Source of the DNA: a virus
Virus record (IMG/VR): IMGVR_UViG_3300045988_001431
Span: 1 to 6,299 of that record
DNA: 6,299 nucleotides
Strand: one strand, 5' to 3'
Under the pieces are notes generated by a model that saw nothing but the letters and a program-made list of their open reading frames with translations, did no database searches and was not told the origin of the DNA. The first letter of the stretch is position 1. Each line of letters opens with the position of its first letter. The position numbers were made by a program, and so were the translations under genes. Below are positions 1 through 6,299 of this stretch, piece after piece.

Positions 1-99
1 AAGCATAAACACGGGACGGACTATCGGAAGAAGCTAATGCACCAGGCATAACAGCTACCGAACCATACTGAGAGGATGGGAGAACTCCCATAAAATAGT
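1..99. repeat. Terminal direct repeat, copy 1: circular-contig overlap, identical to 6201..6299
   Basis: Reading directly, bases 1..99 (aagcataaacacgggacgg...cccataaaatagt) match 6201..6299 base for base. The capsid reading frame is continuous across the join, because the 6200-nt offset preserves the frame (position 2 maps to 6202, the same codon phase as ORF 5320..6291). Confidence 0.97.
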
Positions 100-863: not shown

Positions 864-2693
864 TTAGACCATATGGTTAAATATATCATTTGCATCATTA
901 AGTTTCTTATGCTTAATCATATCACGACAGAATTTCGATGAACGGTTATCCAAACACCTTTGTAAGTCGTCGCACAAATCGTTGTAATTTGCAGGTTGCG
1001 AGGCTTTAAAGGATGGTCCGACCAAACGAGAAAGAGCTGGGGAAAGTAATAATTTTCGGGGGTCATCAAAATGTAAGACGACCGGTTTGATTCCTGCCAT
1101 TCTGTCTCGAATAGTGTACGTGGAAAATGTTCCATCTTCTTCCTCCTTAACGGTCGACACTTCACATCCTGAGGCTGGTAAGTAAAAATATCGCAATAAA
1201 GGGAATTCGCATGTTTCTTGTATTCGCAACGAATCACACATTCGTACATAATCCGCTTTCTTTTCATATTCTAGACCCGTTTTAATGATAAAACTAATAC
1301 GATTGGCAAAAGGATACAAATTATCACCGATGCCAGGGAGATGCCAATTCCGGAGGAACTTGGAGACATAAAGGAACAGCCGATATAACTTATTAATAAA
1401 ATATTCAACATCGACATCGCTAGAACTGTTAACGAACCTAGTAAGACACCTAGCATTATGTAATATAATCTTATCTTCATCAGTTAATATATGATTTAAA
1501 GTTATATATCTATAATATGCACGCACAATAGATAAAATAGATTTACTATCATAATCTACAATGCCGAACCGTGCGATTCTTTTTGGCGCTGTTGTGACTG
1601 CTGAAATAACTCTAGATATCGCAACAACATCATCGCAGCGAGCTCCTGAGAATCTGGGGAGTAAGGAACGGATATACGATATGGGGGGAGTTGACTTGAC
1701 AACGATGCCATTAAAATTATACTCTCTTCCATTAACGACCGAATCGATTTTAGCTTCAATCTGCGCATAGACATCTTCACCCTCATCAAATGTTTCACCT
1801 TTCTCAAAAAATCCAAGGGACGCTCTTGAACGGGGTTTAAACGCACGGCATGAGCGATAAAGAGAGGGAGCAGAAGCCAAGCTGTTAACGTAACTCGCAA
1901 CGTACGAAGCGCATCCACCGTTGGAACATTGGATATCTGAACGACCGAACTTCCAACTTTTATTATGACACTCTCGAATGACATTGGAGATTTCCTTTGA
2001 GTTAAAGAATAATAGCAAATGGAAATGTGGGCGGAAATGGACTGGGCCATACTCGCCAACAGCGTAAAATGATATCTTTTCATTAGTATATCTGTCTAAA
2101 TGTCTACGTAAACGTTTAATATAATTCTGAACATCAACGTAATTCAGAAAAGGGATAAGGTTATTACCGTATCTACGGGAAAGTTCTCCATCCTTACCGT
2201 AAGGTGTAGCGGATTGAGTCTTATGGATAAAAGCACGCATAGAATCAATAGATACAAACCAATTATCCTTAACCGGCTCATACTCACCTGATTCACGGTT
2301 ATATGAAACCGTACCCTGAACCTGAGTAAAGAATATATGCTGTATTCGCTGAGGGTCAGCAGCACAGAATTCAGAAACCGGGACACGAGCATGCTCTTCA
2401 CATCCATAAACAACGCCGGAATCGCTTAAAACATCATCATATTCAGAATGGTATACTTCACAATTGAATAGAGGAACGTGTTCATTATCATAGGTGAGCG
2501 TAACAAACCAACAATACTTAAAGGCACTTCCGGCGGTCTTCACACGCATGGACGCCTTTTGAGCTCGCTTGTGTATACAATAGTCACATTGACCGCAATC
2601 TATAGCGATACGCTTACCTGTATATTTGTTGGTAATGAATGAACGATGTTGACAATGGTCAGCAGCCTTAAGCAAATCCGGCGTATATCTCAT
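864..2693 (-). CDS. VP4: Rolling-circle replication initiation protein (HUH endonuclease, Microviridae VP4 / gene A-like), 609 aa
   Basis: Motif I is FVTLTYD (2487..2507). Motif II is HFHLLLF, the HUH motif (2007..2027). Motif III is YVASYVNS with two Tyr spaced by 3 residues (1881..1904); compare phiX174 A YVAKYVNK, from memory. There is an N-terminal Cys cluster, CGQCDYC, preceded by HCQH. The start ATG at 2693..2691 overlaps the upstream stop as ATGA. The stop is TAA at 866..864. Confidence 0.95.
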   Translation of the reverse strand: MRYTPDLLKAADHCQHRSFITNKYTGKRIAIDCGQCDYCIHKRAQKASMRVKTAGSAFKYCWFVTLTYDNEHVPLFNCEVYHSEYDDVLSDSGVVYGCEEHARVPVSEFCAADPQRIQHIFFTQVQGTVSYNRESGEYEPVKDNWFVSIDSMRAFIHKTQSATPYGKDGELSRRYGNNLIPFLNYVDVQNYIKRLRRHLDRYTNEKISFYAVGEYGPVHFRPHFHLLLFFNSKEISNVIRECHNKSWKFGRSDIQCSNGGCASYVASYVNSLASAPSLYRSCRAFKPRSRASLGFFEKGETFDEGEDVYAQIEAKIDSVVNGREYNFNGIVVKSTPPISYIRSLLPRFSGARCDDVVAISRVISAVTTAPKRIARFGIVDYDSKSILSIVRAYYRYITLNHILTDEDKIILHNARCLTRFVNSSSDVDVEYFINKLYRLFLYVSKFLRNWHLPGIGDNLYPFANRISFIIKTGLEYEKKADYVRMCDSLRIQETCEFPLLRYFYLPASGCEVSTVKEEEDGTFSTYTIRDRMAGIKPVVLHFDDPRKLLLSPALSRLVGPSFKASQPANYNDLCDDLQRCLDNRSSKFCRDMIKHKKLNDANDIFNHMV

Positions 2694-2986
2694 ATTCGAT
2701 TTTCTATATGTTGATGACGATTTCTAGGACCAAAAGAAATGTGCATGAACCCATCATAAGTAATGAACTGGTCATAGGCGACATTATCCATAATATAAGA
2801 CGACAACTGATTATAAGTCGTAGAACCATAAGGCTTAAAGTCAATGGCTTCACCTTTTAAGTGCTGAGAGGTAGAAACACCTCCAGCAGCTTTATTCTGT
2901 TCGGGAGTACGATAAGCACTGGTTATAGTAAAATGATAGTTAAGCTGGAGCAAACCATCAAGAAAATGCATAAGAGCAGGATTCAT
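2690..2986 (-). CDS. Zinc D,D-/L,D-peptidase of the peptidase M15 (M15A / Peptidase_M15_3-like) type, 98 aa; putative cell-wall hydrolase (endolysin)
   Basis: The sequence ITSAYRTPEQNKAAGGVSTSQHLKGEAIDF matches the family pattern S.YR....N...GG...S.H..G.A.D. The H-x6-D zinc-ligand motif HLKGEAID lies at 2840..2863, and a distal His (MHIS, H82) at 2741..2743. I see no N-terminal signal peptide. Both ends form ATGA overlaps with the neighbouring genes. Confidence 0.85.
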   Translation of the reverse strand: MNPALMHFLDGLLQLNYHFTITSAYRTPEQNKAAGGVSTSQHLKGEAIDFKPYGSTTYNQLSSYIMDNVAYDQFITYDGFMHISFGPRNRHQHIENRI

Positions 2987-3069
2987 AAGCCTATCGCATT
3001 AAGAATGTAACCAAGAGCCGCACTGACAGCTCCAATAATAATTTTCCATATATTATTTTTAGTTGCCAT
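2983..3069 (-). CDS. Small 28-aa single-pass membrane peptide (MATKNNIWKIIIGAVSAALGYILNAIGL); candidate holin-like or membrane-targeting partner of the peptidase
   Basis: This is the C-terminal segment of track ORF 2983..3213, starting at the internal ATG 3069..3067. It has a short polar N-terminus followed by a ~22-residue hydrophobic stretch. It exactly fills the 72-nt gap between the 67-aa gene and the peptidase gene. Its ATG lies inside the last codons of the 67-aa gene (AATGGCAACTAA) and its TGA overlaps the peptidase ATG (ATGA). Evidence is positional and compositional only. Confidence 0.4.
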   Translation of the reverse strand: MATKNNIWKIIIGAVSAALGYILNAIGL

Positions 3070-3262
3070 TTTGAGTTGATTTAACAGGTTCGACGAATTG
3101 ATTCTCTTCTTTAATTGAATCCACAATAACAACAAGACCCAACGGAGAAATTCGCTCAGAATAATTTCCAAGACCATCCAAAGAATTGACAATATAAGGC
3201 GCAATAACATCACGTCCGGAATGTTTCTCTTTAATTGAAATAATAAATTTCTGCATAATCAT
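3059..3262 (-). CDS. Hypothetical 67-aa protein (MIMQKFIISIKEKHSGRDVIAPYIVNSLDGLGNY...); function unknown
   Basis: It is the first ORF downstream of the non-coding region on the coding strand and has a balanced, protein-like composition. The competing 76-aa ORF lies in its +1 frame, the frame that is spuriously open throughout this genome. I recognise no motif. Confidence 0.6.
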   Translation of the reverse strand: MIMQKFIISIKEKHSGRDVIAPYIVNSLDGLGNYSERISPLGLVVIVDSIKEENQFVEPVKSTQNGN

Positions 3263-3403
3263 AAATTTTAAACGTTAATAATAATAAGTTGGCTTCTACA
3301 GAGGACAAAGAAAGACATTATTTTTTATATATGCAAGATTTTTCGGATATTTTCCTTTGGTACGGTCTTGTGTGAGTTCAACGTTTATAGACAAGAGAGA
3401 GAG

Positions 3404-3426
3404 AAACTGAGAGGATAACTCAGTTT
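3404..3426 (-). terminator. Perfect 8-bp hairpin (AAACTGAG / loop AGGATAA / CTCAGTTT); candidate intrinsic terminator or attenuator
   Basis: Arms 3404..3411 and 3419..3426 are exact reverse complements. On the minus (mRNA) strand the stem is followed by TTTCTCTCTCTCTTG, and on the plus strand by a T at 3427 that extends the arm's TTT. The stem is AT-rich (3 GC pairs of 8), so it would be a weak terminator at best. Confidence 0.3.
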
Positions 3427-3447
3427 TGCATTCGCATTGAACTAGGG

Positions 3448-3571
3448 GCTTCGCTTGACAAAGTGCAAGATGTATACAGGGTGTATAGGCACGGCAAGGC
3501 AGAAAGTCTGTCTTGCCTTTGCGCACCTACGTGCTAAAATACCGCTTCGCTTCAAGGTAGGTCGCTTCGCT
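3448..3571. repeat. Three direct copies of GCTTCGCT (3448..3455, 3544..3551, 3564..3571); the last two are 20 nt apart
   Basis: Read directly from the sequence: gggGCTTCGCTtgaca, accGCTTCGCTtcaagg, ggtcGCTTCGCTccg. All three copies have the same orientation, as iterons do. Confidence 0.7.
3493..3517. other. 11-bp stem / 3-nt loop hairpin (GGCAAGGCAGA-AAG-TCTGTCTTGCC)
   Basis: Pairing runs 3493-3517 through 3503-3507, with a single G.T pair at 3499/3511. On the plus strand that position is a tolerated wobble. On the minus strand it becomes an A.C mismatch. Confidence 0.6.
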
Positions 3572-3586
3572 CCGTTTTTCGATCAG

Positions 3587-3633
3587 GCCCTACGCGGGCG
3601 GCGGGTGTATATCGCTCAAGCGCCGCGATGGGC
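3587..3633. other. GC-rich imperfect hairpin (GCCC-TA-CGCGG ... CCGCG-AT-GGGC)
   Basis: 3587..3590 pairs with 3630..3633 and 3593..3597 pairs with 3623..3627. The two stems are separated by a 2x2 internal loop, and the apical loop is ~25 nt and contains one GGGTGTATA copy. An alternative register, GCGGCG/CGCCGC, is also possible. Confidence 0.45.
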
Positions 3634-3730
3634 TTTTAGTCCTGAAGTATGTATACAAGAAAGGCCTACTCATCACGAGCGGGCCAATCAAAATTAAACA
3701 CAGAATTACTAAAGCAAAAAGATAGTATAA

Positions 3731-4864
3731 CTAATAACCTATACCATTAGAACCATTACGGGAAACCTGAGCACCGGGGCGCATAGCTCCAATTATATTA
3801 CCAGCACCCTGAAAAATACGAGATCCATAATCTATAGAATTACGTAAACCATAAGATTCAAAGTCCTTTCTGGCATTACCAGCAGACCACTTATAATAGT
3901 CTCGCAAGGCCTTATCTTTAGAATACTGCATATTCTTACGATTATTGACGTTCTTATAATCCCAAAGAGAATCATAATACTGTGTATAGTAAGCCATATT
4001 AGTAGCACTTACAAGAGAATCAGCAGTATCAGAAGCTATCTTATTAGTAATCTTCTGGCCTTGCGTCTGAGCAGCAACCTGGATTGCACGTTGAATTTCA
4101 GTTTGAATCTGTTTCTCAGTCAGAGCTCCTTGTTGTACAAGATTATAAAGATACTGGGCTTTTGTAAACAAATCTGCTTGCTGCTGAGCATCCATATATT
4201 TATTCAGGACAGCTTGAGAATCAGACTGTAAATAAATCTGAGTCGTTTGAGCGGCAGAAAGCTTACCAGCAGTAACAGCGTTATCTAATTGCTGACGCTC
4301 CATAGATTGGTCTAATTCAGCAGAAATACGGCCTGTTTCCTTATTCCAATAACCAGACTCACCGACACCAATATTCTTATAATTAGTATCACCTAACATC
4401 TTTTTTACCATATAAGGAAGAAGAGTGTCTATCTGTTTAGATTCAGATATAAACTTCTTAGCTTGAGCGAATGAAGCCAAAGCAGTATCCACACTTGAAA
4501 AGTCCGGATGAAAAGCCTGATACGGAATAGGACTGGCAGCAGAAGCCTGACCACCAGAGGGCGAAGAACCTGAGCCAGCACCAGTCTGAGCAGCAGAACC
4601 AGACATAAACGGATTCAAACCACGAGAAATCATAGCTTCAGGAGAATTATATTCTCGCGATTCATCAACCATCTTTTCTTGCCAATCACGTTGTTTCTTG
4701 GCTTCCAGCATATTGAACTTATTGGTAAGCTGAGTATTACGGAAATTAGCACGATTAGCAGAGGATTGCTGAAGAGCACCTCCAATAGCACTAATAGCAG
4801 CACCAATAAACTGCGGTTGGTTGCATGGAGAGAGCAAGCTCTCTCCAATTTCTAGAAACTTCAT
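3731..4864 (-). CDS. VP2: Minor capsid / DNA pilot protein (Microviridae VP2 / H-like), 377 aa
   Basis: There is an N-terminal small-residue hydrophobic segment, FIGAAISAIGGAL. FNMLEAKKQRDWQEKMVDESREYNSPEAMISRGLNPF (about 4607..4717) matches the FN..EA.K.RDWQE.M...Y......GLNP pattern I recall from gokusho/alpa-type VP2. It is followed by a Gly/Ser-rich linker and then a long Gln/Ala-rich region that is probably coiled coil. The start ATG 4864..4862 overlaps the upstream stop as ATGA. Confidence 0.85.
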   Translation of the reverse strand: MKFLEIGESLLSPCNQPQFIGAAISAIGGALQQSSANRANFRNTQLTNKFNMLEAKKQRDWQEKMVDESREYNSPEAMISRGLNPFMSGSAAQTGAGSGSSPSGGQASAASPIPYQAFHPDFSSVDTALASFAQAKKFISESKQIDTLLPYMVKKMLGDTNYKNIGVGESGYWNKETGRISAELDQSMERQQLDNAVTAGKLSAAQTTQIYLQSDSQAVLNKYMDAQQQADLFTKAQYLYNLVQQGALTEKQIQTEIQRAIQVAAQTQGQKITNKIASDTADSLVSATNMAYYTQYYDSLWDYKNVNNRKNMQYSKDKALRDYYKWSAGNARKDFESYGLRNSIDYGSRIFQGAGNIIGAMRPGAQVSRNGSNGIGY

Positions 4865-5319: not shown

Positions 5320-6299
5320 TTAATAAGGTAAACCATTTCTATCCAAGTTCTGAACAGCGTAGACTTTGAAATTCACATTACACAGCAATTGGTCATAAGC
5401 TACATTATATGCAGTAGTAGAAACCTGAGATTGGAATATAGAATTCAATTGCTGAGGTCGAACCTTGAAAGATTGATAAGAAAATGAAGACTGACCAGAA
5501 ACCTGAGGCTGAGAACCTTGTAAAGGAGCAGCCCAAGACTGATAAGCAGTAAAGGGGCGGAAAGCGCCGTGAACAGTATCTATATTAGATTTCCATTGCC
5601 AATAGCGAAGATTATAACCGATATTACCTGTAGGACAAGACGGACTATTATTCAAAGCCAAAGCCGGAACAGGCTGCATACCTAATTGGTCGAATGCAGG
5701 TTGCGGAAAATCAGTAATACTAGTACACAACAATTGGGGGTTATGACCTTTTAATGCCCAATCCAATAAAGGCACAGAGTGATATACAATCATCAATACA
5801 CAATGTTCAGCACCACAATCATAAGTGAGAGTATGACCGGAATTAGAACCAACACCTTTACCAGCGATGACAGCCTGAGAAGTATCGGCTTCAAGATTGG
5901 TATTAAGAACTTCATTAATACTAATTACATTAGACCAACCTCCAACGAAATGAGAGTGATTACCCATATACTCAGGGGCTTTAATGCCGAATTGGGCAGC
6001 CATCTGGTCCGAATAATCCTTACTAGAGAACTGGACTACTTCTTTCCAGCGCTGGAGGTATTCAGTTGCACGGATTGACAAGGCAGATAGGTCAGAATTA
6101 AGAGTAGCATAACGAGTAGCGGAAGAAGTATTACTAGTAATAACAGAAGTAGAGGAGGGAGAGTTCATAATAGAACCAACAGAACCGGCACCCAAAGGAG
6201 AAGCATAAACACGGGACGGACTATCGGAAGAAGCTAATGCACCAGGCATAACAGCTACCGAACCATACTGAGAGGATGGGAGAACTCCCATAAAATAGT
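5320..6299 (-). CDS. VP1: Major capsid protein, C-terminal part. The unique sequence is 5320..6200; 6201..6299 duplicates 1..99.
   Basis: Track ORF 5320..6291 begins at an internal Met. The frame stays open to the window edge (..DYF-MGVLPSS..) and joins 1..847 in phase. The joined CDS is 1728 nt, giving 575 aa plus a stop. It ends ...LDRNGLPY-TAA. Confidence 0.93.
   Translation of the reverse strand, partial: YFMGVLPSSQYGSVAVMPGALASSDSPSRVYASPLGAGSVGSIMNSPSSTSVITSNTSSATRYATLNSDLSALSIRATEYLQRWKEVVQFSSKDYSDQMAAQFGIKAPEYMGNHSHFVGGWSNVISINEVLNTNLEADTSQAVIAGKGVGSNSGHTLTYDCGAEHCVLMIVYHSVPLLDWALKGHNPQLLCTSITDFPQPAFDQLGMQPVPALALNNSPSCPTGNIGYNLRYWQWKSNIDTVHGAFRPFTAYQSWAAPLQGSQPQVSGQSSFSYQSFKVRPQQLNSIFQSQVSTTAYNVAYDQLLCNVNFKVYAVQNLDRNGLPY
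6201..6299. repeat. Terminal direct repeat, copy 2: circular-contig overlap, identical to 1..99
   Basis: Same as copy 1. De Bruijn assemblers commonly leave an exact overlap of k-mer-like length on circular contigs. Confidence 0.97.

What the first reader, a model, noticed from the sequence alone, without database searches (positions are those of the whole stretch)
2690..2986. Minimal (98-aa) M15-type zinc peptidase in a microvirus: enzymatic lysis instead of E-type single-gene lysis
The SxYR / GG / S.H-x6-D / distal His signature of the peptidase M15A fold is intact, but the protein is very short and has no signal peptide or obvious cell-wall-binding domain. phiX174 lyses the host by MraY inhibition (protein E), and classical gokushoviruses have no recognised lysis gene. 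I recall M15-like peptidases being noted sporadically in metagenomic or prophage microviruses, but I cannot verify that here. This is a candidate minimal endolysin, or possibly an entry-associated peptidoglycan hydrolase.
Basis: partly seen in the sequence, partly recalled or inferred. Interest (0 to 1): 0.65.

Follow-up and report, generated by a model that had tools for sequence, protein, structure and literature searches.

The report
Short M15 cell-wall peptidase in microvirus
This small gut ssDNA phage really does encode a trimmed-down zinc cell-wall peptidase, but such peptidases were described in microviruses in 2012; the new detail is a tiny, strongly conserved membrane-peptide gene fused end-to-start to it, which may be its lysis partner.

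Summary
Window 2986..2690 (minus strand) is a 98-aa ORF that passes the Pfam Peptidase_M15_3 threshold. It keeps the SxxR, GG and H-x6-D...H motifs and models confidently as a LAS/M15 fold. It has no signal peptide or TM segment. The window is a complete 6200-nt circular microvirus.

The novelty claim fails. Hundreds of 80-91% identical proteins sit on ~6.2-kb contigs. GenBank relatives are annotated "peptidase". Roux et al. 2012 described M15_3 peptidases in gut microviruses and proposed an endolysin role.

The protein is short because it lacks the N-terminal 35-45 residues of ordinary 130-160-aa homologues. It is under purifying selection (dN/dS 0.23).

A 28-aa single-TM peptide gene (3069..2983) overlaps the peptidase start by ATGA. 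Its dN/dS is 0.10, and analogous 27-31-aa TM peptides hold the same position in divergent relatives. In this clade it also extends into a 75-aa form overprinted on the upstream ORF. It is not annotated as its own CDS in the GenBank relatives checked.

Best reading: a compact, translationally coupled membrane-peptide plus peptidase lysis module, which is inferred and not shown. Similar peptides also occur upstream of Rep in relatives without the peptidase, so "instead of single-gene lysis" is not established.

The parts
2690..2986 (-). 98-aa stand-alone M15_3 (LAS-fold) zinc peptidase, 11.2 kDa, pI 6.6. It lacks the N-terminal ~35-45 residues of the canonical domain. Putative Zn ligands are H42, D49 and H82; the substrate-binding Arg is R26.
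   Evidence: Pfam PF08291 E=1.7e-12, profile positions 42-107 of 108. PHROG 894 endolysin E=5e-21. AF2 mean pLDDT 88.4. Foldseek top PDB hit 1LBU, probability 1.0, rmsd 2.1 A over 73 columns. Profile alignment places H42 at H154, D49 at D161 and R26 at R138 of 1LBU. dN/dS 0.23. Mass, pI and hydrophobicity.
2983..3069 (-). 28-aa single-TM peptide MATKNNIWKIIIGAVSAALGYILNAIGL. It has a Lys-rich N-terminus and a TM segment that runs to the C-terminus. Its TGA stop overlaps the peptidase ATG (ATGA). Candidate membrane-lesion (holin-like) partner.
   Evidence: Conserved in 18 related genomes, with codon-position diversity 0.187/0.031/0.416 and dN/dS 0.10. Kyte-Doolittle 19-residue maximum 2.03. Divergent analogues of 29-31 aa hold the same position in L014/L016, L039 and L040/L041. 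tblastn finds it in 35 phage records, all of them peptidase carriers, and it is never annotated as its own CDS.
2983..3210 (-). Possible 75-aa N-terminally extended isoform of the TM peptide (76 aa if translation starts at GTG 3213). It is overprinted in the +1 frame of ORF-A. It has a hydrophobic N-terminal 33 residues, a KKR loop and the C-terminal TM segment.
   Evidence: The +1 frame of ORF-A has no stop in 14 of the 15 genomes simulated, where 3.6-5.6 are expected; P(open) is 0.0002-0.018 per genome. With four further relatives read by eye it is open in 18 of 19. The +2 frame shows the expected number of stops. Stop-creating xTA codons at at-risk positions number 1 of 272 in ORF-A, against 42 of 206 in the peptidase gene. 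211 database clusters call this ORF, on contigs of about 0.5-10 kb, many near 6.2 kb, with no Pfam match. It is not universal: half open in L040, closed in L041, absent in L014/L016.
3059..3262 (-). ORF-A, a 65-67-aa soluble conserved protein of unknown function. It is the first gene of the translationally coupled string ORF-A > TM peptide > peptidase > Rep.
   Evidence: Conserved in 19 genomes with the canonical codon-position pattern 0.281/0.138/0.356. Annotated 'hypothetical protein' in GenBank relatives. No Pfam, PHROG or NCBIfam hit.
864..2693 (-). Replication initiator (VP4-like, 609 aa). Its ATG overlaps the peptidase stop (ATGA).
   Evidence: PF23343 E=8e-16. PHROG 942 E=4e-36. Sequence read.

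Best explanation
The ORF encodes a catalytically competent, N-terminally trimmed LAS-fold zinc peptidase of the M15_3 (M15A-like) family. It has no export signal. I infer that it is the wall-degrading half of a very compact lysis module.

Shown here:
- Family membership, fold and conservation of the metal-ligand residues.
- Purifying selection on the peptidase and on the neighbouring TM peptide.
- The gene string ORF-A > TM peptide > peptidase > Rep, with 11-nt, 4-nt and 4-nt overlaps.

Inferred:
- The string is translated as a coupled unit.
- The 28-aa peptide, and possibly its 75-aa overprinted long form, inserts in the inner membrane with its Lys-rich N-terminus inside, and depolarises or perforates it.
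- The 11-kDa enzyme then reaches the periplasm and cuts peptidoglycan stem peptides or cross-links. The exact bond is unknown.
- The murein of a Gram-negative host, probably Bacteroidales, fails and virions are released.
For: - Family: Pfam score is above the gathering threshold, and PHROG 894 'endolysin' matches at E=5e-21.
- Fold: the AF2 model has mean pLDDT 88.4. Its best PDB match is the M15A enzyme 1LBU. VanY, LdcB and the phage endolysins LysECD7, LysB4 and Ply500 follow more weakly (E 3e-3 to 0.16).
- Viral structure library: the best matches are 'Peptidase M15A' proteins of caudoviruses and other microviruses.
- Active site: H42 and D49 align to H154 and D161 of 1LBU. The triad is invariant across 45 diverse homologues.
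- Selection: dN/dS is 0.23 for the peptidase and 0.10 for the TM peptide.
- Arrangement: the TM peptide abuts the peptidase ATG in every carrier examined, across four sequence-divergent versions.
- No signal or TM segment in the enzyme.
- Host: capsid relatives occur in contigs of Prevotella, Xylanibacter, Paraprevotella and Bacteroidales genomes and MAGs, with Rep and pilot genes alongside, which I read as prophages.
- Literature: the same role was proposed by Roux 2012, Kirchberger 2022 and for cultured roseophage microviruses.
Against: - No experiment on any microviral M15 peptidase was found in the papers searched.
- The protein lacks the first ~40 positions of the domain, so activity is assumed, not shown.
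- The catalytic base could not be assigned.
- The TM peptide fails several holin criteria. It is 28 aa, has no charged C-terminal tail, and has no homologue in Pfam, PHROGs or NCBIfam.
- Design-similar TM peptides sit upstream of Rep in peptidase-less relatives L051 and L052. The peptide therefore does not depend on the enzyme and may have another role.
- The Prevotellaceae prophage relatives lack the peptidase.
Confidence: 0.6

Rival explanations
1. The small TM peptide is the primary lysis effector. It could be a membrane-depolarising peptide or an amurin-like single-gene lysis peptide, ancestral to this clade. The peptidase would then be a later, horizontally acquired accessory that only speeds up or completes wall breakdown.
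For: - 31-32-aa TM peptides of the same design lie directly upstream of Rep in relatives without a peptidase, L051 and L052.
- The peptide is under stronger constraint than the enzyme: dN/dS 0.10 against 0.23.
- Peptidases are a patchy, horizontally transferred accessory gene in microviruses.
Against: - Homology between the peptides of carriers and non-carriers is only suggestive because the sequences are short and hydrophobic.
- tblastn with the window peptide finds only peptidase carriers.
- The peptidase itself is clearly maintained by selection.
Confidence: 0.2
2. The peptidase is an entry enzyme. It would be carried in or on the virion and would open the peptidoglycan locally during DNA delivery.
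For: M15A domains are often fused to tail, baseplate or tape-measure-like proteins in tailed phages. Examples are the 805- and 1000-aa proteins in L019 and L034 and the gp5 OB-fold fusions in the viral structure library.
Against: - Here the enzyme is a free 98-aa protein with no structural domain.
- It is encoded between a TM peptide and Rep rather than with or inside the pilot or capsid genes.
- From general knowledge, microvirus pilot proteins form their own DNA conduit and T=1 capsids have little spare room.
Confidence: 0.1
3. The enzyme has a non-lytic role. It might trim host stem peptides (DD- or LD-carboxypeptidase activity) to block superinfection or alter the envelope. Alternatively it is an inactive remnant.
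For: - The closest solved structure is a DD-carboxypeptidase, not an endolysin.
- The N-terminal third of the domain is missing.
Against: - The Zn ligands and R26 are invariant and the gene is under purifying selection, which argues against a remnant.
- The protein has no export signal, so it cannot reach its substrate in an intact cell.
- The genome is under tight size constraint, which I take from general knowledge.
Confidence: 0.07

Closest known systems
M15_3 peptidases of gut Alpavirinae and Gokushovirinae (Roux et al. 2012, PMC3394797), and the GenBank 'peptidase' CDS of Dulem viruses, Microvirus sp. and 'MAG TPA: peptidase [Microviridae sp.]'
   Same: Same Pfam family and same virus family, from gut, faecal, saliva and vaginal samples. 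The proposed role is the same (endolysin). The closest GenBank relative is 84.5% identical (Dulem virus 241). Unnamed database proteins reach 91% identity, all of 94-99 aa.
   Different: Nothing essential for the peptidase. The abutting 27-31-aa TM peptide gene is not annotated as its own CDS in the 35 related GenBank records. It is not discussed in the passages I read, which were keyword hits rather than full texts. Roux 2012 notes only that 5 of 11 peptidase genes sit next to an 'unknown' predicted ORF with no database similarity. That note may refer to ORF-A or to the long overprinted form.
Streptomyces albus G zinc D-Ala-D-Ala carboxypeptidase (PDB 1LBU; from memory, the type enzyme of MEROPS M15A)
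   Same: Best structural hit (E=3.5e-4, probability 1.0, rmsd 2.1 A over 73 columns) and best profile hit (E=3e-11). The SxxR...SxH-x6-D block aligns residue for residue.
   Different: 1LBU is 213 aa with an extra N-terminal wall-binding domain, and it is a secreted bacterial enzyme. The profile alignment stops before the last His. Only 23% identity.
Stand-alone phage M15 endolysins: T5 L-alanyl-D-glutamate peptidase (2MXZ), LysECD7 (8Q2G), Ply500 catalytic domain (2VO9), LysB4 (6AKV)
   Same: LAS fold, single-domain zinc peptidases used for lysis. The structural matches are weak (E 0.03-0.16).
   Different: They are 125-150 aa and mostly belong to other M15 subfamilies. The window protein is 98 aa and lacks the N-terminal segment. 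Sequence similarity is marginal (2MXZ E=0.008).
Holin-endolysin cassettes of tailed phages
   Same: A small membrane-protein gene lies immediately upstream of, and overlaps, a signal-less muralytic enzyme gene.
   Different: From memory, known holins are roughly 60 aa or longer and usually carry a charged C-terminal tail. This peptide is 28 aa, ends in its TM segment, and matches no family in Pfam, PHROGs or NCBIfam. No spanin-like genes are evident.
phiX174 protein E (overprinted single-gene lysis protein, MraY inhibitor)
   Same: Same virus family. It is a small membrane protein, and the possible 75-aa long form here is likewise overprinted on another gene.
   Different: No sequence similarity. 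Here the TM segment is at the C-terminal end, and a muralytic enzyme is encoded next to it. Any MraY-type target is untested.

Membership tests
Pfam PF08291 Peptidase_M15_3 (MEROPS M15, LAS enzymes) | Whole-protein score above Pfam's gathering threshold | tested here: met
   47.8 bits against 23.2; E=1.7e-12.
Pfam PF08291 Peptidase_M15_3 (MEROPS M15, LAS enzymes) | Zn-ligand pattern H-x6-D ... H, plus the SxxR substrate-binding arginine | tested here: met
   H42, D49 and H82 are invariant and S23 and R26 are at least 90% conserved in 45 homologues. H42, D49 and R26 align to H154, D161 and R138 of 1LBU. That those 1LBU residues are the ligands is from memory.
Pfam PF08291 Peptidase_M15_3 (MEROPS M15, LAS enzymes) | LAS fold: central antiparallel sheet flanked by helices | tested here: met
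   AF2 mean pLDDT 88.4. Foldseek gives probability 1.0 for 1LBU and VanY and 0.87-0.99 for LdcB, LysECD7 and Ply500. TM-score (query-normalised) 0.66-0.92 to viral M15A models.
Pfam PF08291 Peptidase_M15_3 (MEROPS M15, LAS enzymes) | Complete domain (profile positions 1-108) | tested here: not met
   Only positions 42-107 are matched. The N-terminal 'hFsl.Ef..s.ta...gi.N.P' segment of 130-160-aa homologues is absent. Other short forms exist.
Pfam PF08291 Peptidase_M15_3 (MEROPS M15, LAS enzymes) | Zinc binding and peptidoglycan peptide hydrolysis | not testable with these tools
   Needs biochemistry.
Phage endolysin (functional class) | Muralytic catalytic domain encoded by a phage | tested here: met
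Phage endolysin (functional class) | Route to the periplasm: a signal or SAR sequence, or an adjacent holin-type gene | tested here: inconclusive
   The enzyme has no signal or TM segment. A conserved TM peptide gene abuts it, but its pore-forming activity is unknown.
Phage endolysin (functional class) | Required for host lysis at the end of infection | not testable with these tools
   No isolate and no experimental report were found.
Holins (considered for the 28-aa or 75-aa membrane peptide) | At least one TM domain, with the gene adjacent to the endolysin gene | tested here: met
   Kyte-Doolittle 19-residue maximum 2.03. ATGA overlap with the peptidase gene.
Holins (considered for the 28-aa or 75-aa membrane peptide) | Typical size (about 60-150 aa) and a charged hydrophilic C-terminal tail | tested here: not met
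   The short form is 28 aa. Both forms end in the TM segment ...LNAIGL. Only the uncertain long form (75 aa) is in the size range.
Holins (considered for the 28-aa or 75-aa membrane peptide) | Homology to a described holin family | tested here: not met
   No credible Pfam hit (best E=0.13, below the gathering score) and no PHROG or NCBIfam hit. All 211 database homologues listed are unnamed or spuriously named, and they lie on contigs of about 0.5-10 kb, many near 6.2 kb.
Holins (considered for the 28-aa or 75-aa membrane peptide) | Timed, lethal membrane-hole formation | not testable with these tools
   Needs expression experiments.
phiX174 E-type amurin | Sequence or architectural similarity to protein E: N-terminal TM domain and basic C-terminal part | tested here: not met
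   No family hit. The TM segment is C-terminal.

The most novel reading that the evidence does not exclude
The 27-31-aa TM peptide, with a 75-aa overprinted long isoform in this clade, is a genuine membrane-permeabilising lysis factor. It would work together with the 98-aa peptidase as a two-component lysis cassette of about 380 nt in an ssDNA phage. That would make it by far the smallest holin-like protein paired with the smallest M15 endolysin. It would also contradict the textbook view that microviruses lyse only through single-gene amurins without a muralytic enzyme or holin.
Probability: 0.3. Interest if true: 0.6.

Novelty: already known. Interest (0 to 1): 0.3.

Why it matters
The peptidase itself adds only one more member to a family described in microviruses since 2012. 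Two things are worth keeping.

First, it shows how far the M15 domain can be trimmed. The protein is 98 aa and lacks the N-terminal third, yet it is still under purifying selection. That is useful for enzybiotic engineering.

Second, there is a strongly conserved membrane-peptide gene, not annotated as its own CDS, that is translationally coupled to the enzyme. If it is the export or lesion partner, gut microviruses use a miniature holin-endolysin system. The statement that ssDNA phages lack this machinery, quoted for example in PMC11946311, would then need revising. The pair would be an easily synthesised, testable lysis module.

Tried and rejected
- TM-peptidase fusion by frameshift or readthrough (a SAR-type endolysin). 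Rejected as a general mechanism. The two ORFs are in the -1 relation with ATGA overlap and no slippery heptamer in the window clade and in L039. They are in different frames in L014/L016. They share a frame, separated by one stop, only in L040/L041.
- The GenBank 124-aa 'peptidase' CDS of Dulem viruses 226, 238 and 243. These suggested an N-terminal extension, but the extension is the alternative frame of the TM peptide and is not hydrophobic. I treat it as a mis-called start.
- Is the open +1 frame over ORF-A a codon-usage artefact? Tested against other genes. Pilot, capsid, VP3 and the peptidase show observed stops close to expected. At-risk xTA codons are used at 20% in the peptidase gene but 0.4% in ORF-A. 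The frame is not universal, so I report it as uncertain.
- AF2 on the 75-aa form gave one continuous helix with pTM 0.39. This says nothing about topology.
- phmmer of the single sequence against PDB gave only a marginal hit, T5 endolysin at E=0.008. The profile search and Foldseek were needed.
- First prophage scan with the single capsid protein found nothing. An alignment query found Prevotellaceae and Bacteroidales hits, but none carries the peptidase.
- Rfam scan of the window found nothing.
- L031 and L032, which carry the M15 domain in a 285-aa protein next to a 798-aa ORF, were not pursued because they are probably not microviruses.
- Strict co-occurrence of TM peptide and peptidase is not supported. 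L051 and L052 have a similar peptide without the enzyme.
Full report
**What the window is.** All long ORFs lie on the minus strand. Bases 1-99 repeat at 6201-6299, so the window is a circular 6200-nt genome with an assembly overlap. The gene order on the coding strand is:
- major capsid protein, 575 aa, from 847 across the junction to 5320 (PHROG 514)
- a 152-aa VP3-like ORF
- pilot protein, 377 aa
- a 468-nt non-coding stretch
- ORF-A
- a small TM ORF
- the 98-aa ORF of the finding
- Rep, 609 aa (PF23343, PHROG 942)

The closest GenBank genomes are lemur, dog, marmot and human 'Microviridae' with the same order. An alignment of their capsid proteins finds relatives in contigs of Prevotella, Xylanibacter, Paraprevotella and Bacteroidales genomes and MAGs. 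Rep and pilot genes lie alongside, so I read these as prophages. The host is therefore probably a Gram-negative Bacteroidales, but this is an inference.

**Checking the observation.** The ORF at 2986..2690 exists and has the stated motifs.
- Pfam Peptidase_M15_3 scores 47.8 bits against a 23.2-bit cut-off (E=1.7e-12). M15_2 and M15_4 are sub-threshold.
- PHROG 894 'endolysin' gives E=5e-21.
- An AF2 model built on 23 homologues has mean pLDDT 88.4.
- Its best PDB match is the M15A zinc DD-peptidase 1LBU (E=3.5e-4, probability 1.0, rmsd 2.1 A over 73 columns). VanY, LdcB and the phage endolysins LysECD7, LysB4 and Ply500 follow, together with hedgehog N-domains, which is the usual LAS set.
- In the viral structure library it matches 'Peptidase M15A' proteins of caudoviruses and of other microviruses.
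- A profile of 45 homologues hits 1LBU at E=3e-11. It aligns R26, H42 and D49 to R138, H154 and D161.
- N31, G36, S40, H42, D49 and H82 are invariant across those 45 sequences.
- The protein has no hydrophobic segment of signal or TM grade.

**Why it is short.** The Pfam match starts at profile position 42. In a search of 1.84 billion cluster representatives, 1727 proteins match. The nearest clusters are 96-105 aa and align from residue 1. More distant ones are mostly 130-160 aa, with query residue ~19 opposite their residue ~50-55. The alignment shows that the microviral form lacks the N-terminal 'hFsl.Ef..s.ta..gi.N.P' segment and begins at the helix that precedes the SxxR strand. A few other short forms occur. 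The gene is not decaying: dN/dS is 0.23 over 133 genome pairs.

**Is it new?** No.
- 482 clusters at E<=0.001 were found. The best 120 are 80-91% identical, 94-99 aa long, many on ~6.2-kb contigs, and some are named 'MAG TPA: peptidase [Microviridae sp.]'.
- 126 phage records hold a relative, and many are annotated 'peptidase'.
- Roux et al. 2012 reported PF08291 genes in 11 human-associated microviruses. They argued for horizontal acquisition and suggested an endolysin role (PMC3394797).
- Kirchberger et al. 2022 list peptidases among the few microviral accessory genes and link them to lysis (PMC9239249).
- I found no experimental test of any of these.

**What else is there.** Reading the upstream DNA showed a 28-aa ORF at 3069..2983, MATKNNIWKIIIGAVSAALGYILNAIGL. 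Its TGA overlaps the peptidase ATG.
- It is present with the same ATGA junction in 17 further genomes whose peptidases are only 53-85% identical.
- Over its last 22 codons, diversity at codon positions 1/2/3 is 0.187/0.031/0.416, against 0.287/0.218/0.453 for the peptidase. Its dN/dS is 0.10.
- More distant peptidase-carrying microviruses have a different but analogous peptide at the same place:
  - MSTENNKKTNWITAVISAIVAALTSLLSNLA (L014, L016)
  - MKAETKSKLWAAIISALVSLLSNLANIL (mar62)
  - MKSETKSKIWSAIIAAAVSLLTSIAQIFS (L040, L041)
- All have a Lys-rich N-terminus and a TM-grade segment that runs to the C-terminus (Kyte-Doolittle 19-residue maximum 1.8-2.0).
- tblastn finds the window's peptide in 35 phage records. 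All are peptidase carriers, and none annotates it as a CDS.

**A possible long form.** In the window's clade the peptide's frame stays open back through the whole of ORF-A, in ORF-A's +1 frame. This gives a 75-aa hydrophobic protein from ATG 3210.
- Resampling synonymous codons of ORF-A predicts 3.6-5.6 stops in that frame. None is seen in 14 of the 15 genomes simulated (P(open) 0.0002-0.018 each). The +2 frame behaves as expected. With four further relatives read by eye, the frame is open in 18 of 19.
- Other genes of the genome show observed stops close to expected, except one stretch in Rep.
- Stop-creating xTA codons at at-risk positions are used 1 time in 272 in ORF-A, against 42 in 206 in the peptidase gene of the same genomes.
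- Gene callers have predicted this long ORF in 211 database clusters, on contigs of about 0.5-10 kb (many near 6.2 kb), with no Pfam domain.
- It is not universal. The frame is half open in L040, closed in L041, and absent with ORF-A in L014/L016.
- ORF-A keeps the canonical codon-position pattern, so it is the older frame.
- AF2 sees only one long helix.

I regard the short peptide as well supported and the long isoform as likely but unproven.

**Mechanism.** The string ORF-A > TM peptide > peptidase > Rep, with 11-nt, 4-nt and 4-nt overlaps, is shown by the sequence. An enzyme whose substrate is periplasmic but which has no export signal needs a membrane lesion. The abutting, strongly constrained TM peptide is the obvious candidate, as in holin-endolysin cassettes.

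I therefore commit to a two-component lysis module, with confidence about 0.6 for 'the peptidase is the muralytic lysis enzyme' and about 0.3-0.4 for 'the peptide is its partner'.

Against a simple holin reading:
- The peptide is far below holin size.
- It lacks a charged C-terminal tail.
- It has no known homologue.
- Similar 31-32-aa TM peptides lie just upstream of Rep in two relatives that lack the peptidase (L051, L052).

This last point keeps alive the rival that the peptide is an older, self-sufficient lysis or membrane factor and the enzyme a later add-on. Entry-enzyme and non-lytic roles are less likely, for the reasons given under the rival explanations.

**Verdict.** The family assignment is right. 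The functional idea is reasonable but already published and still untested. The claimed surprise is small. The added value is the conserved mini membrane-peptide gene, not annotated as its own CDS, and its possible overprinted long form. Together these turn 'a peptidase' into a testable miniature lysis cassette.

Noticed in passing
window 1-99 and 6201-6299: A 99-nt exact terminal direct repeat. The window is a circularly assembled 6200-nt genome. The capsid gene (575 aa) runs from 847 across the junction to 5320 on the minus strand.
   Followed up: yes
window 1556-2083 (minus strand), inside the Rep gene: The +1 frame of Rep holds a 175-aa ORF starting MKRY..., within a 179-codon open stretch. 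A 177-186-codon open stretch at the equivalent place is present in all 9 relatives checked, including genomes with only 41% capsid identity. Synonymous resampling gives P(open) 0.002-0.08 per genome. No PHROG or NCBIfam hit. It may be a second overprinted gene, by analogy with genes B and K inside gene A of phiX174.
   Followed up: partly
window 3059-3262 (minus strand): ORF-A is a conserved 65-67-aa soluble protein of unknown function at the head of the coupled gene string. It has no family match. A different small ORF holds the same place in mar62, L040 and L041.
   Followed up: partly
window 3263-3730: A 468-nt stretch between the pilot gene and ORF-A has no convincing ORF and slightly raised GC (about 0.42). 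No Rfam family matches. It may hold the origin or promoter region.
   Followed up: no
L035 3935-4309, L036 3985-4359, L037 3998-4372 (Dulem viruses 226, 238, 243): The GenBank 'peptidase' or 'hypothetical protein' CDS are 124 aa because the start is called 63 nt too early. The extension reads the alternative frame of the TM peptide gene, which is itself left unannotated.
   Followed up: yes
L040 about 4420-4515 and L041 about 4250-4340: In these two genomes the TM-peptide ORF and the peptidase are in the same frame, separated by one stop codon and one sense codon. Stop-codon readthrough would make a membrane-anchored peptidase. This is not the case in the window's clade.
   Followed up: partly
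L051 4342-4440, L052 4303-4398, L054 4863-5027: Relatives without a peptidase still carry a small membrane-protein gene directly upstream of Rep. L051 and L052 have 31-32-aa TM peptides. L054 has a 54-aa ORF with a lipoprotein-like signal (MRKLIILLILCCVCLVGVTSC...). This position looks like a hot spot for small envelope-active genes.
   Followed up: partly
L043-L050 (genome contigs): Capsid, Rep and pilot relatives occur in contigs of Xylanibacter rarus, Prevotella spp., Paraprevotella and a Bacteroidales MAG, which I read as integrated prophages. Short contigs labelled Saccharospirillum and Marinomonas also match. None of the six Bacteroidales and Prevotellaceae loci tested encodes the peptidase.
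   Followed up: partly
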